Shown here in pieces: positions 9,898-15,454 of a DNA stretch of 64,000 nucleotides (positions within the stretch are counted from its first letter, which is position 1; the number at the start of each line of letters is the position of its first letter). The position numbers and the translations under genes were made by a program. The notes below the pieces were generated by a model. That model saw nothing but the letters and a program-made list of their open reading frames with translations, did not search any database and was not told where the DNA came from. The stretch spans positions 160,001 to 224,000 of the IMG/VR virus record IMGVR_UViG_3300005259_000074; one strand, 5' to 3'. This DNA is from a virus. Its lineage: Duplodnaviria > Caudoviricetes.

Positions 9898-9969
9898 AGC
9901 CCAAAATCGGTGCCGACCCGATGACCTCGTCCTTACCAAGGACGTGCTCTACCGCTGAGCTACTTGGGC
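9898..9969 (-). tRNA. tRNA-Thr(GGT), no encoded CCA
   Basis: Cloverleaf; CGTCC-TT GGT AA-GGACG. Confidence 0.85.
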
Positions 9970-9975
9970 ATATGT

Positions 9976-10049
9976 TGGTGCGGTTAGGGAATTACGATAT
10001 CCCGATTGCTGTCTGGCAGGCAGCCGTCTTTCCTCTAGACTATAACCGC
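9976..10049 (-). tRNA. tRNA-Gly(GCC)
   Basis: GCTGC-CT GCC AG-ACAGC; CCA end. Confidence 0.85.
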
Positions 10050-10060
10050 AATGTAATTAT

Positions 10061-10453
10061 TTACCCTCTCAGGCAGCTTCCACAAGCTCCAGAAGGTTTG
10101 CAGTCTTCTGGACACCTTGTCATATCTTCTTCGTCTCTGTACTTCTCGATCATTGTCTTAGCTGTGAAGATCAACGCGCGATTTCTAGCGCCTTTCATCG
10201 TCTTGGAGTATGGAGTGACCTCTAAAAATCCTTTCCACGTGACGAATCCCCTATAAGTCTTACCCACGCTGAACACGTGGACTCTGACATCTTTCGCTGG
10301 GTCACAGTGATATCTGTTATCTCGCTCTTTCACCCACTTAGCTTTCTTGAAGACCTGCAATCGTTCTTTCACGTCGAACAGAGTTGGATGATACTTGACA
10401 TCGTCTTCTGAGAACGATATGTCTATCTTCTGCATGATCGTGAAATTGTCCAT
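10061..10453 (-). CDS. Hypothetical protein
   Basis: 130 aa ORF with a Cys-rich tail. Confidence 0.6.
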   Translation of the reverse strand: MDNFTIMQKIDISFSEDDVKYHPTLFDVKERLQVFKKAKWVKERDNRYHCDPAKDVRVHVFSVGKTYRGFVTWKGFLEVTPYSKTMKGARNRALIFTAKTMIEKYRDEEDMTRCPEDCKPSGACGSCLRG

Positions 10454-10454
10454 G

Positions 10455-10649
10455 TCATCTTCTCACTTCTGGTATTGGAAGTCCTTCTTCTCTCAGCATT
10501 TCTATCCCATCATCGATAGCTTCTTCTAGAATCTCTAGAGCTTTCACTTGGTCTCTATCAATACCCGACAGATGAGGAAAATCTTTGCACACGGCGATGA
10601 ACTCACCGTGTTCTTCGTCGTACACAATGATCTTGTTGTAGTGTGACAT
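10455..10649 (-). CDS. HicB-like antitoxin N-terminal domain only
   Basis: YDEEHGEFIAVCKDFPHLSG...ALEILEEAI...LREEGLPIP matches the HicB partial RNase H fold pattern; no DNA-binding domain. Confidence 0.75.
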   Translation of the reverse strand: MSHYNKIIVYDEEHGEFIAVCKDFPHLSGIDRDQVKALEILEEAIDDGIEMLREEGLPIPEVRR

Positions 10650-10724
10650 TGGTATCCTCTGTAGGTAACGAGCCTACGACCTTCGCGATGTGAACGCGAT
10701 GCTCTACAACTGAGCTAAGAGGAC
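10650..10724 (-). tRNA. tRNA-Val(CAC)
   Basis: TCGCG-TT CAC AT-CGCGA; CCA end. Confidence 0.85.
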
Positions 10725-10735
10725 AAGAAACTTCA

Positions 10736-11041
10736 TCATTTCCACAATTTGTACCAAGAGAACGGCTTCGGCCACTGATCGTTAGGCCTTGGACAGAACA
10801 CCAACGCAGTCTCAGCACCACCAAGTCCCGACTCGGTCATCAACACGTATTTGTCGAACTTCTTGGCGTTCTCAAATTCTCTGTCGTTGAGCTTACAGAT
10901 GCACTTCCTGAAAGACTTGTCTAGCCATAGGTCGTAGTCTGCGTCTTTCCCAGAGAACTGCCTGTCGGCCGCTAACACTCCGTGCCCGACGGCCAGCATA
11001 GCGTGTCCTATGTCGATAGACTCTCTGACCAAGATGTACAT
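10736..11041 (-). CDS. Pth2-family peptidyl-tRNA hydrolase
   Basis: MYILVR...GHAMLAVGHG...WL...FRKCICK...ESG...ETALVFCP pattern. Confidence 0.7.
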   Translation of the reverse strand: MYILVRESIDIGHAMLAVGHGVLAADRQFSGKDADYDLWLDKSFRKCICKLNDREFENAKKFDKYVLMTESGLGGAETALVFCPRPNDQWPKPFSWYKLWK

Positions 11042-11054
11042 CCTGGTGCTGCAC

Positions 11055-11240
11055 TCAGTCGAAGTCGTCGTACTCACTGTACTTGTCCATTTCTACGTCA
11101 TCTAGGAGTTCTTCGATGAGCTTCTTCTCAGACACTCGTTTTTCGTTGCGGTTCTTCATCGTCTTCTCTTGTGGGTTGACTTCCCACATTTTGCGTGTCA
11201 ATTTGTAGGACGGCGTCTTCTGGTGCTTCTTAGAGCTCAT
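11055..11240 (-). CDS. Small hypothetical protein
   Basis: 61 aa ORF. Confidence 0.55.
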   Translation of the reverse strand: MSSKKHQKTPSYKLTRKMWEVNPQEKTMKNRNEKRVSEKKLIEELLDDVEMDKYSEYDDFD

Positions 11241-11398
11241 TTCATCTTTCTCTTCTTGATAACTGTACTGCGTCTAGCTCTCTTCCAGAATTCCTCAGTG
11301 AGTTCTGGAATGTCTGAATAGTCTATTTCAGAATCTTTCATCGCCCTGAGTCTGTCGATGTCATCTTGTTTTATCTTTCGTGTAGAGCGATCTACCAT
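11237..11398 (-). CDS. BrnA-antitoxin-like N-terminal peptide (53 aa)
   Basis: Hand-translated: MVDRSTRKIKQDDIDRLRAMKDSEIDYSDIPELTEEFWKRARRSTVIKKRKMK. Confidence 0.7.
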   Translation of the reverse strand: MVDRSTRKIKQDDIDRLRAMKDSEIDYSDIPELTEEFWKRARRSTVIKKRKMK

Positions 11399-11553
11399 TC
11401 TGTGATAGTCTTTCTGAAATCTTCTTTCGGAAGATTCTTATACCTGCGAACTTTCTTCTTGCAGTAAGGACAGCGTTCTCCTTCGCTCACGAGTGCGTGA
11501 TCGCAACATGGACACCAAGAATGCCTGTATCTGTGTAAAGGGCCGCGCTTCAT
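11392..11553 (-). CDS. Small Zn-ribbon protein
   Basis: CPCC...CPYC; start moved to MKRGP so it does not overlap the tRNA. Confidence 0.6.
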   Translation of the reverse strand: MKRGPLHRYRHSWCPCCDHALVSEGERCPYCKKKVRRYKNLPKEDFRKTITEW

Positions 11554-11556
11554 AAT

Positions 11557-11631
11557 TGGTAGGAGTAGAGGAAATCGAATCCCCATAGCCGACGTGTAGA
11601 GTCGGTGCACTTACCGTTGTGCTATACTCCC
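11557..11631 (-). tRNA. tRNA-Val(TAC) with C33
   Basis: CCGAC-TC TAC AC-GTCGG; CCA end. Confidence 0.75.
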
Positions 11632-11639
11632 ATAACAAA

Positions 11640-11740
11640 GTCTAGATCGAGCAAGTTTGGAGCGGTCCGGACATTTTACTGCAGCAATCTGTCCAAACAT
11701 CCTAAAGCATCTAATTATATATTTCTTGCTCGACCTAGAC
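11640..11740 (-). ncRNA. Candidate ~100 nt structured RNA
   Basis: 16-bp terminal stem GTCTAGGTCGAGCAAG/CTTGCTCGATCTAGAC plus an internal GGACA/TGTCC hairpin. Confidence 0.5.
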
Positions 11741-11752
11741 CCATAAATCATC

Positions 11753-11887
11753 TGGTGCCTATAACCGGTCTCACGACCAGTAACCCTCCCGACTCCTCGA
11801 CTGTTGGTCTAGCAGATTTACCATGGCACTCTGCTATACTCTGTCGCACCCTCGTTCGCGTGAAAGCAATCGATTGCTTTCCTAGGC
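11753..11887 (-). ncRNA. Multi-arm tRNA-like RNA ending in ACCA
   Basis: Acceptor GCCTAGG/TATAGGC-A-CCA with a T-arm-like hairpin and extra hairpins. Confidence 0.55.
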
Positions 11888-11908
11888 TGGCGCTTGACGT
11901 ATCAAGCG
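11888..11908 (-). ncRNA. CCA-tailed microhelix
   Basis: CGCTTGA-TACG-TCAAGCG-CCA. Confidence 0.45.
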
Positions 11909-11912
11909 TAAA

Positions 11913-11986
11913 TGGTCCCTCCAGCAGATCTCGAAACTGCGTCTCGGGCTTATGAAACCCGCGTTCTTCCTGTGAACTATAGAGGG
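11913..11986 (-). tRNA. tRNA-Met/Ile2(CAT)
   Basis: CGGGT-TT CAT AA-GCCCG; CCA end. Confidence 0.8.
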
Positions 11987-11996
11987 ATAATGCACG

Positions 11997-12070
11997 TGGT
12001 ACTCCTTGAGGGTTCGAAACCTCGACCTCTTCCATGTCACGGAAGTGCTCTACAACTGAGCTAAAGGAGC
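11997..12070 (-). tRNA. tRNA-Val(GAC)
   Basis: CTTCC-GT GAC AT-GGAAG; 5' end overlaps the NADAR stop codon. Confidence 0.85.
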
Positions 12071-12501
12071 ATGAGATCGTTCTTGACTGTCCTTCTGATG
12101 TTCTTCCTTATCAGCATGATCATCTTACCTAGTACGTTCTTCCCAGTGCCTTTGCACTGGCTGCAATAACATACTCCCCAGCAGCGGTCGTGCCACGTGT
12201 TGCCTTCTTCGAGGTACTGATCGCCTGTGTCTAGCAACTTCTGCCTCAACACTGGGTCTCTGAACTTGTAGACCAGAAGTCGGTACATCACTCGGTACTT
12301 CTTGACTTCCCAGTCTGGAACCATTGAACAGACTTGACCTGCTCTCTTGGCTTGCCCTGGAGATGGGAGGTGAGCGATGTACTTCCTAGTCGAGGGACTA
12401 GATGCTTTCGCAGCTTGGTAGTAGTGCTCGATAGTCTTTCCGTTCGGGAACTTCGAAAAATTGGAGAGCCAACGAGTGTCGCCGCGAAATTCCTTGATCA
12501 T
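12061..12501 (-). CDS. NADAR (YbiA/DUF1768) family protein
   Basis: WLSNF, EHYYQAAK, M..L...KF....L...LL.TG...L.EGN.WHD..WG....GKNVLGK. Confidence 0.9.
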   Translation of the reverse strand: MIKEFRGDTRWLSNFSKFPNGKTIEHYYQAAKASSPSTRKYIAHLPSPGQAKRAGQVCSMVPDWEVKKYRVMYRLLVYKFRDPVLRQKLLDTGDQYLEEGNTWHDRCWGVCYCSQCKGTGKNVLGKMIMLIRKNIRRTVKNDLMLL

Positions 12502-12608
12502 CTCATCCTCTTCGTTTGAATTTTCCCGAGCTCCTTCGCGTCTATCCGGTCCTGGCAGGCGGCGACGTGTAGTGCCGCTCTTCGAGTCGAAGAAGGGACC
12601 CTCGAGAA

Positions 12609-12682
12609 TGGAGCACTGTGGGAATTCTGACATCCCAACTGCAACTTGGGAAGTTGCGGTCTTTCCTTTAGACTAACAGTGC
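12609..12682 (-). tRNA. tRNA-Gly(CCC)
   Basis: GCAAC-TT CCC AA-GTTGC; CCA end. Confidence 0.85.
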
Positions 12683-12685
12683 AGA

Positions 12686-12759
12686 TGGTGCGAGTAGAGA
12701 ATTCCGACATCTCGTCGCTAGTTTGGAAAACTAGGGTCCTTCCTCTGAACGATACTCGC
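12686..12759 (-). tRNA. tRNA-Gly(TCC)
   Basis: CTAGT-TT TCC AA-ACTAG; CCA end. Confidence 0.85.
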
Positions 12760-12891
12760 ATTAACACTCGGACTACTGATCCCTCTCCGGTCTCGACTAT
12801 ACGGTGACCTCGAGTGGATCCTTCATCCGAATCTGGCTCGGATAGATGTGGAGAGCGTCTATACGGTTCTTCACGTCTATTCGAAAACTTC

Positions 12892-12967
12892 TGGCGCATC
12901 CAAGGAGTGCTGACCTCCTGACCTGCGGATCGACAATCCGCTGCACTAACCGTTGTGCTATGGATGC
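12892..12967 (-). tRNA. tRNA-Asp(GTC)
   Basis: GCGGA-TT GTC GA-TCCGC; G73, CCA end. Confidence 0.85.
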
Positions 12968-12982
12968 ATGATCTAATATACT

Positions 12983-13056
12983 TGGTACTCCATAGCGGTG
13001 TTGATCCGCTTCCTCATGGCTGAGAACCATGTGGTCTACCGTTAACCTAATGGAGC
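12983..13056 (-). tRNA. tRNA-Glu(CTC)
   Basis: CATGG-TT CTC AG-CCATG; CCA end. Confidence 0.85.
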
Positions 13057-13064
13057 ATGAATTC

Positions 13065-13140
13065 TGGTGGACGCAGTGGTAATCGAAACCACATTCTCCG
13101 GGTGCAAACCGAAAGTAATAAACCGTTATACTATGCGCCC
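13065..13140 (-). tRNA. tRNA-Ala(TGC)
   Basis: TT TGC AC loop; G3.U70; CCA end. Confidence 0.88.
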
Positions 13141-13296
13141 TGTTGAATCTCTAAAGATTCATAAAGATAAATCAAACTGCCGCTCCTGTCAATGAAGACC
13201 AATTGAATCTTCACGAGAGCGATCTTCTCTCATTGCAACGCACTGAGATCTATCCGGACTACAACCGGAGTTCGATAGGCGGACGTCTCCGCTTTC

Positions 13297-13372
13297 TGGT
13301 GGATACGGGAGGTGATCGAAACCTCTCTTGCAAGATGCGAACCTGCCGTGCAGCCATCTACACTACCGACCC
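13297..13372 (-). tRNA. tRNA-Ala(CGC)
   Basis: GCAGG-TT CGC AT-CTTGC; G3.U70; bulged acceptor; CCA end. Confidence 0.8.
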
Positions 13373-13393
13373 ATAATAATGATGCATCTGACT

Positions 13394-13469
13394 TGGAGCC
13401 TACGGGCAAGGATTTGAACCGCCATCCATCGGGTACAGACCGATGATTCTACCTTTGAACTACGCAGGC
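13394..13469 (-). tRNA. tRNA-Thr(TGT) with C33
   Basis: ATCGG-TC TGT AC-CCGAT; CCA end. Confidence 0.75.
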
Positions 13470-13478
13470 ATGAAAAAC

Positions 13479-13562
13479 TGTAACAGAGGTGGAGAGTTGA
13501 ACCCACAATGCGTTTCCGCCTGGGTTATGAGCCCAGTTAGCCTACCGAGGCTCGTCTCTGTA
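13479..13562 (-). tRNA. Initiator-like tRNA-Met(CAT) with long variable arm
   Basis: TGGG-CT CAT AA-CCCA, 1:72 mismatch, GCGGAAACGC variable hairpin. Confidence 0.7.
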
Positions 13563-13565
13563 ATC

Positions 13566-13654
13566 TGGTGGAGAGGGAACGATTCGAACGTCCGACACAG
13601 AGCCCTAATTCAAACATCAGTTGGCTCCTGCTCTACCGCTGAGCTACCTACTCC
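13566..13654 (-). tRNA. Atypical tRNA with extended anticodon arm (identity unclear)
   Basis: Normal D and T arms and CCA, but 20 nt lie between the GGAGC and GCTCT stem strands. Confidence 0.65.
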
Positions 13655-13671
13655 ATTATTTCTATGAAGAG

Positions 13672-13745
13672 CTCCTGTGGCATGGCTCGAACATGCGACT
13701 TGGAGATTAACAATCTCCCGTTCATACCGACTGAACTACACAGGA
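13672..13745 (-). tRNA. tRNA-Asn(GTT), CCA-less, acceptor extended by 14 bp
   Basis: GGAGA-TT GTT AA-TCTCC; flanks 13659-13672 and 13746-13759 are complementary. Confidence 0.85.
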
Positions 13746-13761
13746 GCTCTTCATAGAAAGT

Positions 13762-13837
13762 TGGCTCACTTGGCTTGATTCGAACAAGCATGTTCAGAGT
13801 TAACAGCTCTGCCTACTGCCAATTGTAGTACAAGTGA
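13762..13837 (-). tRNA. tRNA-Asn(GTT)
   Basis: CAGAG-CT GTT AA-CTCTG; G73, CCA end. Confidence 0.88.
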
Positions 13838-13975
13838 ATAAGAAATTAGACTGGTCGCTCTTCCGCTGAGCTATCGTGTACATTCTACTTCGTTAGCTGG
13901 ACTCAGTAGAAGTAGGTCCTCCGCGTGCACTCATCAGACCACTCACGAGTCGGATTTGAACCGACGTCTTCCAGT
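13838..13975 (-). tRNA. Circularly permuted tRNA-like gene C (3' half 13975-13941, then 5' half 13880-13838)
   Basis: CCAGT/ACTGG anticodon stem and CACGA/TCGTG acceptor pair only in permuted order; canonical D and T arms. Confidence 0.7.
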
Positions 13976-13996
13976 TGATGGTGTCTCTAGGGCACC
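13976..13996 (-). ncRNA. Minihelix ending A-TCA (CCA-like)
   Basis: GGTGCCCTAGAGACACC-A-TCA; near-identical hairpin recurs at ~14590-14606. Confidence 0.4.
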
Positions 13997-14080
13997 TTAA
14001 TGAGTGCGAGTGTTCTACCATTAAACTACCAGCAAGGTATTTCACTCGCCAGCTTGGAATCGAACCAAGACCTCTCGCTT
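13997..14080 (-). tRNA. Circularly permuted tRNA-like gene B (3' half 14080-14045, then 5' half 14035-13997)
   Basis: CTCGC/GCGAG anticodon stem; TTGCTGG/CTGGCGA acceptor; G73; 9-nt linker. Confidence 0.72.
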
Positions 14081-14114
14081 TGGTGGAACGCCGCTCTTTT
14101 CATAACCGCGCCCC
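14081..14114 (-). ncRNA. 34-nt Ala-type minihelix with ACCA end
   Basis: GGGGCGC...GCGTTCC-A-CCA with G3.U70 and A73. Confidence 0.55.
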
Positions 14115-14305
14115 ATAAATGCCTCGACACATTAGCCGCTATGCTACTAGTGCCAACAAATCCACTGAAAAGCATGGTTGTGTTGCAACACAGTTCTCTC
14201 CTAGAAGAGAACGCTCGTCAGTTTCATTGAGGTGTCGAAACGCGGTTGCAATCCGCTTTACGACCTATTGCACAAGTTGGGATTTGAACCCAACTCTTCG
14301 AGGGT
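14115..14305 (-). tRNA. Circularly permuted tRNA-like gene A (3' half 14305-14269, then 5' half 14153-14115)
   Basis: TCGAGG/CCTCGA anticodon stem; GCACTAG/CTTGTGC acceptor; 115-nt structured linker. Confidence 0.72.
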
Positions 14306-14381
14306 TGGTGGTGTCGGCGGGCAATGATCCCACAACTTTCCGGGTAAGAGCCGGATACTCTGCCAATTGAGTTACGACACC
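14306..14381 (-). tRNA. tRNA-Lys(CTT)
   Basis: TCCGG-CT CTT AC-CCGGA; CCA end. Confidence 0.88.
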
Positions 14382-14388
14382 TTGAATC

Positions 14389-14512
14389 TGGTAACGGACC
14401 TACATTTAGTAGTGCCTCATGGGCTATGTTGCCCAGCGTGCTGCCCCGCCAAATGTTTCTATCCGGGGCGAGGTGACGCAGTGATGGTTCTGCGCCTTTA
14501 CACCATTCCGTA
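14389..14512 (-). ncRNA. Multi-arm tRNA-like RNA ending in ACCA
   Basis: ACGGA/TCCGT acceptor, D-arm-like 5' TGGTGTAAAGG, three internal hairpins, degenerate T arm. Confidence 0.55.
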
Positions 14513-14520
14513 ATAAACTG

Positions 14521-14588
14521 TAGCGGAGCTGGATTCGATACCAGATCACCAGGTTATGAGCCTAGTATGCTACTTACACCACCCCGCA
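14521..14588 (-). tRNA. Initiator-like tRNA-Met(CAT)
   Basis: TGCGGGG/CTCCGCT with 1:72 mismatch; CTAGG-CT CAT AA-CCTGG. Confidence 0.72.
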
Positions 14589-14940
14589 TGTTGGTGTCTC
14601 TAGGACACCATAAAGAGTCATCAGTTGACGCTCTCCGAGCGATCATCAGAGGTGGAGAAGTTTCTTAGACAGAGATGAATCTTGACGGGACCATTTGAGT
14701 TGGGTAAAAACCCACGTGAGGTCCTTCGTGGCACATGTCTGTCAGACGCCGGCTGCTCAGCAACCGACATCGCTCCTCCACCTCGGATGACCACTGGAAA
14801 GCGATCACCTGAGAATAATCCTCATTTTCAAAGAACGGTGCATGAGCTTTAGTAGCACGCATATCTCTCAGTCTGTTCAGCTAGCGACTTGCGCCTCTAG
14901 CATCTGAAAGCTCTCGCGACTCATGCTGAGTCCATTTTGT
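14589..14940 (-). ncRNA. Candidate ~350 nt structured RNA of unknown class
   Basis: TCATCCGAGGTGGAG/CTCCACCTCTGATGA long-range helix plus several local hairpins. Confidence 0.5.
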
Positions 14941-14942
14941 CT

Positions 14943-15017
14943 TGGTGCGCTCGGAGAATTTTGAAATCTCGACTCTCTGGTTAAAAGCCAGATACTCTGC
15001 CTCTGAGTTACGAGCGC
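14943..15017 (-). tRNA. tRNA-Lys(TTT)
   Basis: TCTGG-CT TTT AA-CCAGA; CCA end. Confidence 0.9.
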
Positions 15018-15055
15018 ATATTTCTAATCAGCACCTGAGACTTTCACATCTCATT

Positions 15056-15132
15056 TGGTGGGAGAACCGGGTTTCGATTCCGGATATCCTGCTCTTCAGG
15101 CAGGAGCTCTTGACCGTTTGAGCTATTCTCCC
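15056..15132 (-). tRNA. tRNA-Phe(GAA)
   Basis: CCTGC-CT GAA GA-GCAGG; CCA end. Confidence 0.88.
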
Positions 15133-15141
15133 ATAAACTTC

Positions 15142-15216
15142 TGGTATCCCGTGTCGGTATCGATCCGACTTCCCCTGGATGAAGGCCAGGCATCCTAGCC
15201 AGTAGACGAACGGGAC
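15142..15216 (-). tRNA. tRNA-Glu(TTC) with C33
   Basis: CCTGG-CC TTC AT-CCAGG; CCA end. Confidence 0.82.
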
Positions 15217-15379
15217 AAATGTGAATGAGATGTCTCGCGACATACCAGTTGCAAGCAACTGTCTCACTCATATTCAATGATCACCGGCTTCCGATCTCTC
15301 GTCCGCCTAATCCAATTATACACCACGTGGTGAAAATTGTAATAGGACTTTCGAAAAATCTTCGACCTTTCTTTCGAAC

Positions 15380-15454
15380 TGGAGCTGGTTCCCGGTGACG
15401 ATCCGAGGTCTGTGGGATACGAATCCACTGCTCTACCATTTGAGCTAAACCAGC
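15380..15454 (-). tRNA. tRNA-Thr(CGT)
   Basis: TT CGT AT loop; CCA end. Confidence 0.82.

What the first reader, a model, noticed from the sequence alone, without database searches (positions are those of the whole stretch)
13838..14305. Three tandem circularly permuted tRNA-like genes in a phage tRNA array
On the minus strand, three tRNA 3' halves (anticodon 3' strand, variable loop, canonical TTCRA T arm, acceptor 3' strand) each lie upstream of their matching 5' half (acceptor 5' strand, D arm, anticodon 5' strand). Unit A pairs TCGAGG/CCTCGA and GCACTAG/CTTGTGC with a 115-nt linker. Unit B pairs CTCGC/GCGAG and TTGCTGG/CTGGCGA with a 9-nt linker. Unit C pairs CCAGT/ACTGG and CACGA/TCGTG with a 60-nt linker. 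Each break falls in the anticodon loop, and cross-pairing between units fails. Permuted tRNA genes are known from red and green algae, nucleomorphs and Thermofilum; I know of none in bacteria or phages. Inference: the RNAs are either ligated into circles and then matured, or kept as anticodon-nicked tRNAs acting as decoys against anticodon nucleases or tRNA-sensing defences.
Basis: partly seen in the sequence, partly recalled or inferred. Interest (0 to 1): 0.95.

Follow-up and report, generated by a model that had tools for sequence, protein, structure and literature searches.

The report
Three back-to-front tRNA look-alikes in phage
A giant phage carries, inside its tRNA gene cluster, three conserved RNAs folded like complete tRNAs but with their halves in swapped order and no anticodon, so they are most likely tRNA mimics (like bacterial Y RNAs) and not working permuted tRNA genes.

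Summary
On the minus strand at 13838-14305, three units each run 3' half, linker, then matching 5' half. When rearranged, only cognate halves are called tRNA by ARAGORN (3 of 3, against 0 of 6 cross-combinations). A genome-wide scan finds no other units. A related phage contig (L002) keeps units A and C. Between the two copies 11 predicted base pairs changed on both sides and none is broken, and one stem gained a whole base pair. They are therefore real, selected, L-shaped RNAs and not an artefact.

No canonical anticodon loop can be rebuilt, the break-point tails differ between close relatives, unit A's linker is better conserved than its tRNA halves, and no splicing endonuclease or BHB motif is present. 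The same topology is already known in bacteria and phages as the tRNA-like domain of YrlA Y RNAs.

This case lacks YrlA's defining partner Ro60 and the Rfam match. It also lacks the DUF7873 partner that this scan noted beside similar modules on other DNA. My reading is non-decoding tRNA mimics cut from the tRNA operon by tRNA-processing enzymes. True permuted tRNAs remain possible (about 8%). There is no RNA-level evidence.

The parts
14306..14381 (-). tRNA-Lys(CTT) with an encoded CCA. Its 3' end abuts unit A, leaving only 'AC' before the unit's first stem strand.
   Evidence: ARAGORN; Rfam 57 bits; sequence
14269..14303 (-). Unit A 3' half: anticodon-stem 3' strand, 4-nt variable loop, T arm (TTGGG TTCAAAT CCCAA), acceptor 3' strand, discriminator A. 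No CCA follows.
14154..14268 (-). Linker A (115 nt). It closes the acceptor stem and folds into two conserved domains. It is 90% identical to L002, and two of its hairpin pairs changed on both sides. The first hairpin has a 7-nt loop, AUUGCAA.
   Evidence: no Rfam family at E<=10
14122..14153 (-). Unit A 5' half: acceptor 5' strand GCACTAG, U8-A9, D arm (GCAT AGCGGCTA ATGT), anticodon-stem 5' strand TCGAGG
14115..14121 (-). AU-rich tail after 5' half A (CATTTAT here, CATTAT in L002)
14081..14114 (-). Mini-helix 1: GGGGCGC / GCGTTCC (7 bp, G3:U70) followed by A-CCA, placed 2 nt before unit B
   Evidence: fold of -15.3 kcal/mol
14045..14078 (-). Unit B 3' half (GCGAG, AGGT, CTTGG TTCGATT CCAAG, CTGGCGA, discriminator G)
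14036..14044 (-). Linker B (9 nt), closing the acceptor stem of unit B
14006..14035 (-). Unit B 5' half (TTGCTGG TA GTTT AATGGTA GAAC A CTCGC). The whole of unit B is absent from L002.
13976..14005 (-). Tail of unit B (ACTCATTAA), then mini-helix 2 (GGTGCC CTAGA GACACC), then A-TCA, directly before unit C. The same mini-helix recurs at 14593-14609 before a tRNA.
   Evidence: the L002 counterpart is GGAGTC..GACTCC-A-CCA
13941..13975 (-). Unit C 3' half (CTGGA, AGAC, GTCGG TTCAAAT CCGAC, TCGTGAG, discriminator T)
13881..13940 (-). Linker C (60 nt): two hairpins. The second has three pairs changed on both sides relative to L002.
13850..13880 (-). Unit C 5' half (TACACGA TA GCTC AGCGGAA GAGC G ACCAG T)
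13838..13849 (-). AU-rich tail of unit C, running up to the 5' end of tRNA-Asn
13762..13837 (-). tRNA-Asn(GTT). RNase P cleavage at its 5' end would set the 3' end of unit C.
   Evidence: the processing step is inference

Best explanation
The stretch encodes three tRNA-shaped RNAs that do not decode. Each is a complete tRNA body (7-bp acceptor stem, D arm, 4-nt variable loop, T arm, 5-6-bp anticodon stem, all core tertiary nucleotides). Its two ends lie where the anticodon loop would be, and its acceptor end is closed by a linker of 9-115 nt. This is the topology of the tRNA-like domain of YrlA Y RNAs.

Shown here: the fold, its conservation with compensatory changes in a relative, its position inside a polycistronic tRNA operon with no promoter-like or terminator-like site of its own, and the absence of any rebuildable anticodon loop.

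Inferred: the units are released by the ordinary tRNA-processing enzymes. Each unit's 5' end would come from 3'-end maturation of the tRNA or CCA-tailed mini-helix immediately upstream. Each 3' end would come from RNase P cleavage at the mini-helix or tRNA immediately downstream. The mature RNAs would then act as tRNA mimics. The most likely role is as decoys or docking platforms for proteins that recognise the tRNA body, such as host tRNA-targeting defence enzymes or RNA-repair and quality-control factors. Such mimics would be immune to attack on the anticodon loop and the CCA end, because they have neither.
For: Permuted cloverleaf: ARAGORN calls rearranged cognate halves only, and RNAalifold recovers the permuted cloverleaf without any hint.

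Selection: between the window and L002, RNAalifold finds 6 pairs (unit A) and 5 pairs (unit C) changed on both sides, with 0 broken. My own four-stem table counts 7 such pairs in the tRNA stems. Unit A's anticodon stem also shows a coordinated base-pair indel, TCGAGG/CCTCGA against TCGGG/CCCGA.

tRNA core: U8, A14, G18G19, A21, the T-loop and G53-C61 are invariant. The Levitt 15-48 pair covaries, G-C against A-U.

Non-decoding: junctions give arbitrary anticodons and no Y-U-NNN-R-N loop. Tails differ between close relatives (57-62% identity, with indels), whereas clear tRNA orthologues keep their anticodon loops in 8 of 9 cases. Unit A's discriminator changes from A to G, and 4 of its 7 acceptor pairs change. 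Linker A is 90% conserved against 72-74% for the halves.

Other points: 21-23 of 29 normal tRNAs encode CCA, but 0 of 3 permuted acceptor ends do. No promoter or terminator lies inside the stretch on the minus strand. [quoted passage not shown]
Against: There is no RNA-level data at all: public runs gave no informative reads. No partner protein was identified. There is no TROVE/Ro60 and no DUF7873 among the 50 ORFs scanned. The Rfam YrlA model does not hit the units.

The 7-bp acceptor stems with a discriminator, the phage's RtcB, Rnl-type ligases and CCA-adding enzyme, and the lack of a normal tRNA-Trp are all compatible with a real-tRNA reading.

The decoy function is pure inference. Unit B folds poorly on its own and is not conserved.
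Confidence: 0.6

Rival explanations
1. Split (two-piece) tRNA-like RNAs. RNase P also cuts inside each unit, at the 5' side of the acceptor 5' strand. The linker is trimmed and the phage or host CCA-adding enzyme adds CCA. Each unit then ends up as two base-paired pieces with a free, possibly chargeable, acceptor end and no anticodon loop, as seen for M. smegmatis YrlA and for two-piece tmRNA.
For: All units have a 7-position acceptor stem plus a discriminator, which Chen et al. name as the determinant for RNase P cleavage of YrlA. The phage encodes a CCA-adding enzyme. In unit C a hairpin starts directly after the discriminator. Unit B's linker is only 9 nt.
Against: Linker A is the best-conserved part of unit A (90%), which suggests it is kept and not discarded. 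Stable linker hairpins would block 3' trimming. Unit A's discriminator is not conserved (A against G) and unit C carries a conserved A2.A71 mismatch, both poor for a fixed amino-acid identity. No CCA is encoded.
Confidence: 0.2
2. Genuine circularly permuted tRNA genes. The ends in the anticodon region are joined by the phage's RtcB or Rnl-type ligase, the linker is removed by RNase P and 3' processing, CCA is added, and working tRNAs result. Units A and B, for example, could be tRNA-Trp using the CCA that precedes each 3' half.
For: The tRNA bodies are complete and sit in a tRNA operon. An RtcB plus adjacent Rnl operon, a second Rnl and a CCA-adding enzyme are present. Trp is the only class-I amino acid without a normal phage tRNA. 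'CA'+'CCAAC' at unit A's break is identical in both relatives.
Against: No join gives a canonical loop: U33 would be A or C. Unit C's implied anticodon differs between relatives. Tails vary by indels. There is no EndA, and I saw no leader/trailer pairing that could form a BHB. Unit B is dispensable in L002. Linker A is under stronger constraint than the tRNA parts. Unit A's acceptor and discriminator evolve fast.
Confidence: 0.08
3. Non-functional debris left by recombination between tRNA genes in a very dynamic array.
For: The array differs greatly between the two relatives, with tRNAs gained, lost and swapped and unit B present in only one. Mini-helix 2 and its flank are a duplicate of a segment 600 nt upstream. 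Adjacent paralogues can mimic a permuted unit.
Against: Eleven predicted pairs changed on both sides with none broken, plus a compensated base-pair indel. The tertiary nucleotides are invariant. Linker A is 90% conserved.
Confidence: 0.04
4. Assembly artefact.
For: The window comes from a metagenome-derived record.
Against: An independently assembled, diverged contig has the same order (L002). So do short contigs of a third relative in run X2, which span linker A into 5' half A and span unit C.
Confidence: 0.01

Closest known systems
YrlA-type Y RNAs of bacteria and phages (Rfam RF02553; Chen et al. 2014, PMC4201824)
   Same: Both have the same gene order (variable region, T arm, closed 'acceptor' stem-loop, D arm), with the RNA ends in the helix that replaces the anticodon arm. 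Both keep the tRNA tertiary nucleotides, including a covarying 15-48 pair. Both occur in phages. Some members have a 7-bp acceptor and are cut by RNase P and given CCA.
   Different: No Ro60/TROVE gene is found anywhere in this genome. The Rfam model gives no hit on the units. There is no Ro-binding handle helix beyond the 5-6-bp stem. The GNCGAAG motif is only approximate. Here there are three tandem units inside a tRNA operon, punctuated by CCA-tailed mini-helices, and two of them have long structured linkers.
Circularly permuted tRNA genes of Cyanidioschyzon merolae, green algae, nucleomorphs and Thermofilum pendens (my own knowledge of Soma 2007, Maruyama 2010 and Chan 2011; reviewed in PMC4390854, listed but not opened)
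   Same: The 3' half lies upstream of the matching 5' half, the break is in the anticodon region, and an intervening sequence joins the acceptor strands.
   Different: Those genes carry a BHB motif cut by the splicing endonuclease, rebuild a canonical anticodon loop through a circular intermediate, and decode. Here there is no EndA, I saw no BHB-forming pairing, and there is no rebuildable anticodon loop.
Two-piece tmRNA from permuted ssrA genes of alpha-proteobacteria and cyanobacteria (my own knowledge, Keiler et al. 2000)
   Same: It is a bacterial precedent for a permuted gene of a tRNA-like RNA whose acceptor-closing segment is excised to give two paired pieces.
   Different: tmRNA has no D stem or anticodon stem, carries a tag reading frame, and is detected by ARAGORN. 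None was detected here.
Tandem permuted tRNA-like modules beside DUF7873 or Ro60-like genes, noted earlier by this scan on other DNA (unpublished AI notes e1-2703945, e1-3598349, e1-3433650)
   Same: Both have two or more back-to-front tRNA look-alikes in one RNA of about 360-400 nt, often inside phage tRNA clusters. The L002 version here is 362 nt with two modules.
   Different: No DUF7873 or Ro60-like gene lies next to the units, and none was found among the 50 ORFs scanned.

Membership tests
Circularly permuted tRNA genes (algal/archaeal type) | 3' half upstream of the cognate 5' half, with complementary acceptor and anticodon stems | tested here: met
Circularly permuted tRNA genes (algal/archaeal type) | Bulge-helix-bulge motif at the break, plus a splicing endonuclease to cut it | tested here: not met
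   No PF01974 hit in the genome, while the control rang in 4 archaea. By eye, the leaders are a tRNA or mini-helix 3' end and the tails are AU-rich, with no mutual pairing.
Circularly permuted tRNA genes (algal/archaeal type) | Joining the ends rebuilds a canonical 7-nt anticodon loop with a conserved anticodon | tested here: not met
   Tails differ between relatives, and U33 is absent in every plausible join.
Circularly permuted tRNA genes (algal/archaeal type) | A circular RNA intermediate and a mature, aminoacylated tRNA | not testable with these tools
   No usable RNA reads
YrlA Y RNA (RF02553) | tRNA-like domain in the order T arm, closed acceptor stem-loop, D arm, with tRNA tertiary nucleotides | tested here: met
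   described in PMC4201824
YrlA Y RNA (RF02553) | Encoded within about 4 kb of a Ro60/TROVE gene on the same strand | tested here: not met
   No PF05731 hit in six frames, while the control rang in Deinococcus and Bacteroides. No TROVE in the ten Ro60-sized ORFs.
YrlA Y RNA (RF02553) | Score at or above Rfam's gathering threshold (69 bits) | tested here: not met
   No hit on the units at E<=10. The best hit in the genome, 20 bits, lies on a tRNA-tRNA junction.
YrlA Y RNA (RF02553) | GNCGAAN0-1G motif near the 5' end (putative Ro60 contact) | tested here: inconclusive
   By eye: unit A has CUCGAAG (CCCGAAG in L002), 6 of 7. Units B and C match 4-5 of 7. The motif overlaps ordinary anticodon-stem and variable-loop sequence.
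DUF7873-linked tandem tRNA mimics (this scan's notes) | RNA lies directly downstream of a DUF7873 gene of about 245 aa | tested here: not met
   I saw no plausible ORF over 100 aa within about 1.2 kb in the window or L002. No DUF7873 hit in any of the 50 ORFs scanned, which include 30 of about 217-283 aa.
Canonical tRNA (RF00005) | Contiguous cloverleaf scoring at least 29 bits | tested here: not met
   Only a 26.3-bit partial hit across two different units. Rearranged sequences could be scored only with ARAGORN, not Infernal.

The most novel reading that the evidence does not exclude
These are the first genuine circularly permuted tRNA genes outside eukaryotes and archaea. They would mature without a splicing endonuclease. 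tRNA 3'-end processing of the upstream tRNA or mini-helix and RNase P cleavage downstream would create the two ends in the anticodon region. The phage's own RtcB or Rnl-type ligase would join them, RNase P and the phage CCA-adding enzyme would finish the acceptor end, and units A and B would supply the missing tRNA-Trp.
Probability: 0.08. Interest if true: 0.9.

Novelty: new variant of a known kind. Interest (0 to 1): 0.55.

Why it matters
tRNA mimicry by non-coding RNAs is documented in bacteria mainly through Ro60-bound Y RNAs, whose tRNA-like domain still has no known function. Here the same design appears without Ro60. It is tripled, embedded in a phage tRNA operon, flanked by elements that look built to borrow the tRNA-processing machinery, and carries conserved structured inserts at the acceptor end.

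The same phage also encodes 29 tRNAs, RtcB, two Rnl-type ligases, a CCA-adding enzyme, NAD-salvage genes and a NADAR gene, which is the typical counter-defence toolkit. If these RNAs are decoys for tRNA-targeting defence enzymes, they would be a new class of RNA-based anti-defence factor. If they are real permuted tRNAs, that would overturn the view that such genes need the archaeal/eukaryal splicing endonuclease.

Either way, standard tRNA finders and Rfam miss them.

Tried and rejected
Hammerhead ribozyme in linker C or linker A (CUGAUGAG / CUGACGAG): the GAAA core is absent and Rfam gives no hit at E<=10. Rejected.

Permuted group I intron or self-splicing: the spacers are only 30-43 nt and Rfam finds no intron. 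Rejected.

A tRNA with an intron formed by 5' half X plus 3' half Y of the next unit: the acceptor and anticodon stems do not pair. Rejected.

ARAGORN's intron mode on rearranged sliding windows found only unit A, so I replaced it with a purpose-built scanner.

Searches for more relatives found little. INPHARED BLAST hit only tRNA-Lys of Myxococcus phage Mx1. Three exact-pattern scans of IMG/VR, two of JGI metagenomes and one of GTDB genomes all gave 0 hits. A protein-based IMG/VR scan with the radical-SAM gene found nothing. The 83%-identical DNA polymerase relative has no DNA on file. IMG/VR DNA-polymerase relatives are at most 37% identical, and 560 kb of their DNA gave only weak hits anchored on normal tRNAs.

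RNA evidence: Logan contigs of four wastewater runs showed no back-joined form, and their 'joints' were ordinary tRNAs of other organisms. Two raw-read runs gave no reads.

A genome-wide count of 'hairpin + NYCA' is too permissive to show enrichment of mini-helices (767 hits). The family name DUF7873 is not accepted by the genome search, so I scanned ORFs one by one instead. A kissing interaction between the two UUGCAA motifs of linker A is unlikely, because the second lies mostly inside a stem.

Full report
CONTEXT. The window is bases 160001-224000 of a single 262,470-bp virus record (48.7% GC). It looks like a T4-like jumbo phage. It has a family-B DNA polymerase, a ribonucleotide reductase, ThyX, a sigma factor, a T4-type baseplate protein and a prohead protease. 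ARAGORN finds 29 tRNAs in two arrays. The finding lies in the larger array (window 9898-15454, minus strand), between tRNA-Lys(CTT) at 14306-14381 and tRNA-Asn(GTT) at 13762-13837.

Read on the minus strand, the 468 nt contain three units. Each has an anticodon-stem 3' strand, a 4-nt variable loop, a canonical T arm, an acceptor 3' strand and a discriminator. A linker of 115, 9 or 60 nt follows. Then come the complementary acceptor 5' strand, U8-A9, a D arm and the anticodon-stem 5' strand. ARAGORN calls a tRNA from each rearranged unit at nearly every junction I tried. With a neutral loop it calls only A/A, B/B and C/C, and none of the six cross-combinations. Shuffling the two 3'-side stem strands cuts detection to 9, 36 and 3 of 200. 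My scanner looks for a T-loop, acceptor pairing within 300 nt, and an ARAGORN call on the rearranged halves. Across the whole genome it finds only these three units, plus one expected look-alike where two tRNA-Gln paralogues sit side by side. It finds nothing in the reversed genome. In genomic order, Rfam reports only a 26.3-bit partial tRNA that joins 5'B to 3'C and lacks an acceptor stem.

THE UNITS ARE UNDER SELECTION AND ARE NOT AN ARTEFACT. A metagenome contig from a related phage (L002; NADAR protein 92% identical) has the same local order: tRNA-Lys, unit A, unit C, tRNA-Asn. Unit B is missing there. RNAalifold, given only the two sequences, predicts the permuted cloverleaf for both units.
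- Unit A: 57 pairs, 6 changed on both sides, none broken.
- Unit C: 33 pairs, 5 changed on both sides, none broken.

In a structure-based table, unit A's acceptor goes from GCACTAG/CTTGTGC to GCGCTGA/TCAGCGC. Its anticodon stem goes from TCGAGG/CCTCGA to TCGGG/CCCGA, a base pair gained or lost on both strands about 150 nt apart. U8, A14, G18G19, A21, the T-loop and G53-C61 are invariant. The 15-48 Levitt pair is G-C in three copies and A-U in unit B; the window's unit A copy has G.G. Short contigs of a third relative in run X2 span linker A into 5' half A and span unit C, so three independent assemblies share the arrangement.

WHY THEY ARE PROBABLY NOT DECODING tRNAs.
1. The break leaves no anticodon loop. 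After each 5' half comes an AU-rich tail: CATTTAT, ACTCATTAA, (T)CTAATTTCTTAT. Before each 3' half there are only 1-2 nt after a CCA or TCA. Simple joining gives loops of 8-14 nt, and no join gives Y32-U33-NNN-R37.
2. The tails differ between the two close relatives in length and sequence (57-62% identity). Clear tRNA orthologues in the same arrays keep their anticodon loops in 8 of 9 cases.
3. Unit A's discriminator changes from A to G and four of its seven acceptor pairs change. This fits a structural constraint better than a synthetase identity.
4. Linker A is 90% identical between relatives, against 72-74% for the tRNA-like halves it joins. It has covarying hairpins of its own. That is unexpected for a spacer that is thrown away.
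5. Most normal tRNAs of this phage encode CCA (21-23 of 29). None of the three permuted acceptor ends does.
6. There is no splicing endonuclease, and the leaders and tails show no pairing that could form a BHB.
7. The amino acids without a normal phage tRNA are Leu, Ser, Tyr and Trp. The first three need a long variable arm, which these units lack.

HOW THE ENDS ARE PROBABLY MADE (inference). The stretch has no promoter-like or terminator-like site on its own strand, so the units must be cut out of the operon transcript. Each 3' half is directly preceded by an acceptor-like helix plus A-CCA:
- Unit A: tRNA-Lys itself.
- Unit B: a 7-bp mini-helix, GGGGCGC/GCGTTCC-A-CCA, with an alanine-type G3:U70.
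- Unit C: GGTGCC-CTAGA-GACACC-A-TCA. In L002 this is GGAGTC...GACTCC-A-CCA, a compensated change.

The CTAGA mini-helix occurs exactly twice in the genome. The other copy lies directly before an odd tRNA(CAT) at 14521-14588. It is therefore a punctuation element of the operon in general. RNase P cleavage at the 5' side of the next mini-helix or tRNA, and 3'-end maturation of the previous one, would release each unit with both ends at its anticodon stem. I cannot tell whether RNase P also cuts inside the units, at the 5' side of the 7-bp acceptor stem, as it does in M. smegmatis YrlA (PMC4201824).

COMPARISON WITH WHAT IS KNOWN. Chen et al. 2014 describe, in more than 250 bacteria and phages, RNAs with the order V, T arm, closed acceptor stem-loop, D arm. 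[quoted passage not shown] That is the same topology, so this is not a categorically new kind of RNA. Membership fails, however:
- There is no TROVE/Ro60 gene in six frames or among the ten Ro60-sized ORFs.
- The Rfam YrlA model does not hit the units.
- There is no handle helix beyond the 5-6-bp stem.
- The GNCGAAG motif is only approximated.

This scan has also noted tandem permuted tRNA-like modules beside a DUF7873 gene on other DNA. Here no plausible ORF over 100 aa lies within about 1.2 kb of the units in either phage. None of the 50 ORFs I scanned, 30 of them about 217-283 aa long, matches DUF7873. Literature searches for permuted or split tRNAs in phages found nothing relevant.

WHAT KEEPS THE BOLD READING ALIVE. 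The phage encodes RtcB (373 bits) directly upstream of an OB-fold plus Rnl-type ligase, a second Rnl-type ligase, and a CCA-adding enzyme. Both ligation chemistries are therefore available. For units A and B, the CCA preceding the 3' half, with two tail nucleotides, would give CA-CCA-AC and AC-CCA-AA. Trp is the one class-I amino acid missing from the set. These loops lack U33, however, and unit C gives different anticodons in the two relatives. RNA-repair genes are also common in large phages for other reasons. I put this reading at about 8%.

LIMITS. There are only two full orthologous sequences, plus fragments of a third. There is no transcript, end-mapping or binding data: the public runs gave nothing usable. 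Rearranged units could be scored with ARAGORN only. The proposed function as a tRNA mimic or decoy is inference from anatomy and genomic company.

VERDICT. I class this as a new variant of a known kind (a YrlA-like tRNA mimic with neither known partner, in a tRNA operon with mini-helix punctuation). Interest is 0.55.

Noticed in passing
window 14589-14942 (-); L002 2174-2530: An ORF-free stretch, 88% identical between the two phages, folds into a very stable structure (RNAalifold -135 kcal/mol). It includes a near-perfect long hairpin of about 215 nt. It is another unknown structured RNA inside the tRNA operon, with no Rfam family.
   Followed up: partly
window 14593-14609 and 13980-13996 (-); L002 2509-2525: The mini-helix GGTG(T/C)C-CTAGA-GACACC occurs exactly twice in the genome (0.31 expected by chance). 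One copy precedes a tRNA and the other precedes permuted unit C. Both have similar upstream flanks (CTCTTTAT / CTCATTAA), which points to a duplicated punctuation cassette.
   Followed up: partly
window 14521-14588 (-): A tRNA(CAT)-like gene is found by Infernal (38.7 bits) but not by ARAGORN. It has mismatches at the top of the acceptor stem and in the T stem, and it is identical in L002.
   Followed up: no
window 14085-14114 (-): Mini-helix 1 has G1-C72, G2-C71, G3:U70 and A73-CCA, the classic alanine acceptor identity set. It may derive from a tRNA-Ala, or even be chargeable by AlaRS.
   Followed up: no
G000:C1:19765-27076 (L007): RtcB and an OB-fold plus Rnl-type RNA ligase form an operon. 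About 2 kb downstream on the same strand lie NAMPT and NMNAT/Nudix NAD-salvage genes. Together they look like a likely counter-defence island.
   Followed up: partly
window 12061-12633 (-): A NADAR-domain gene sits inside the tRNA operon. L002 has a shorter, 92%-identical version.
   Followed up: no
L002 240-1424 and 7468-8238: The relative carries a TnpB-like gene (Cas12f1-like TNB domain) just upstream of its array. It also has a 256-aa zinc-finger / endonuclease-I-like gene inserted between tRNA-Gly and tRNA-Thr. The 256-aa insert is absent from the window, where those two tRNAs are adjacent.
   Followed up: no
window 13482-13654 (-); G000 254456-254538: Three tRNAs are unusually long: Met 80 nt, Ile(GAT) 89 nt and Cys 83 nt. 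The first two have low Infernal scores, or none.
   Followed up: no
G000:C1:158863-160497 (-): A DUF2201_N metallopeptidase plus VWA-like protein (544 aa) is encoded across the window's start.
   Followed up: no
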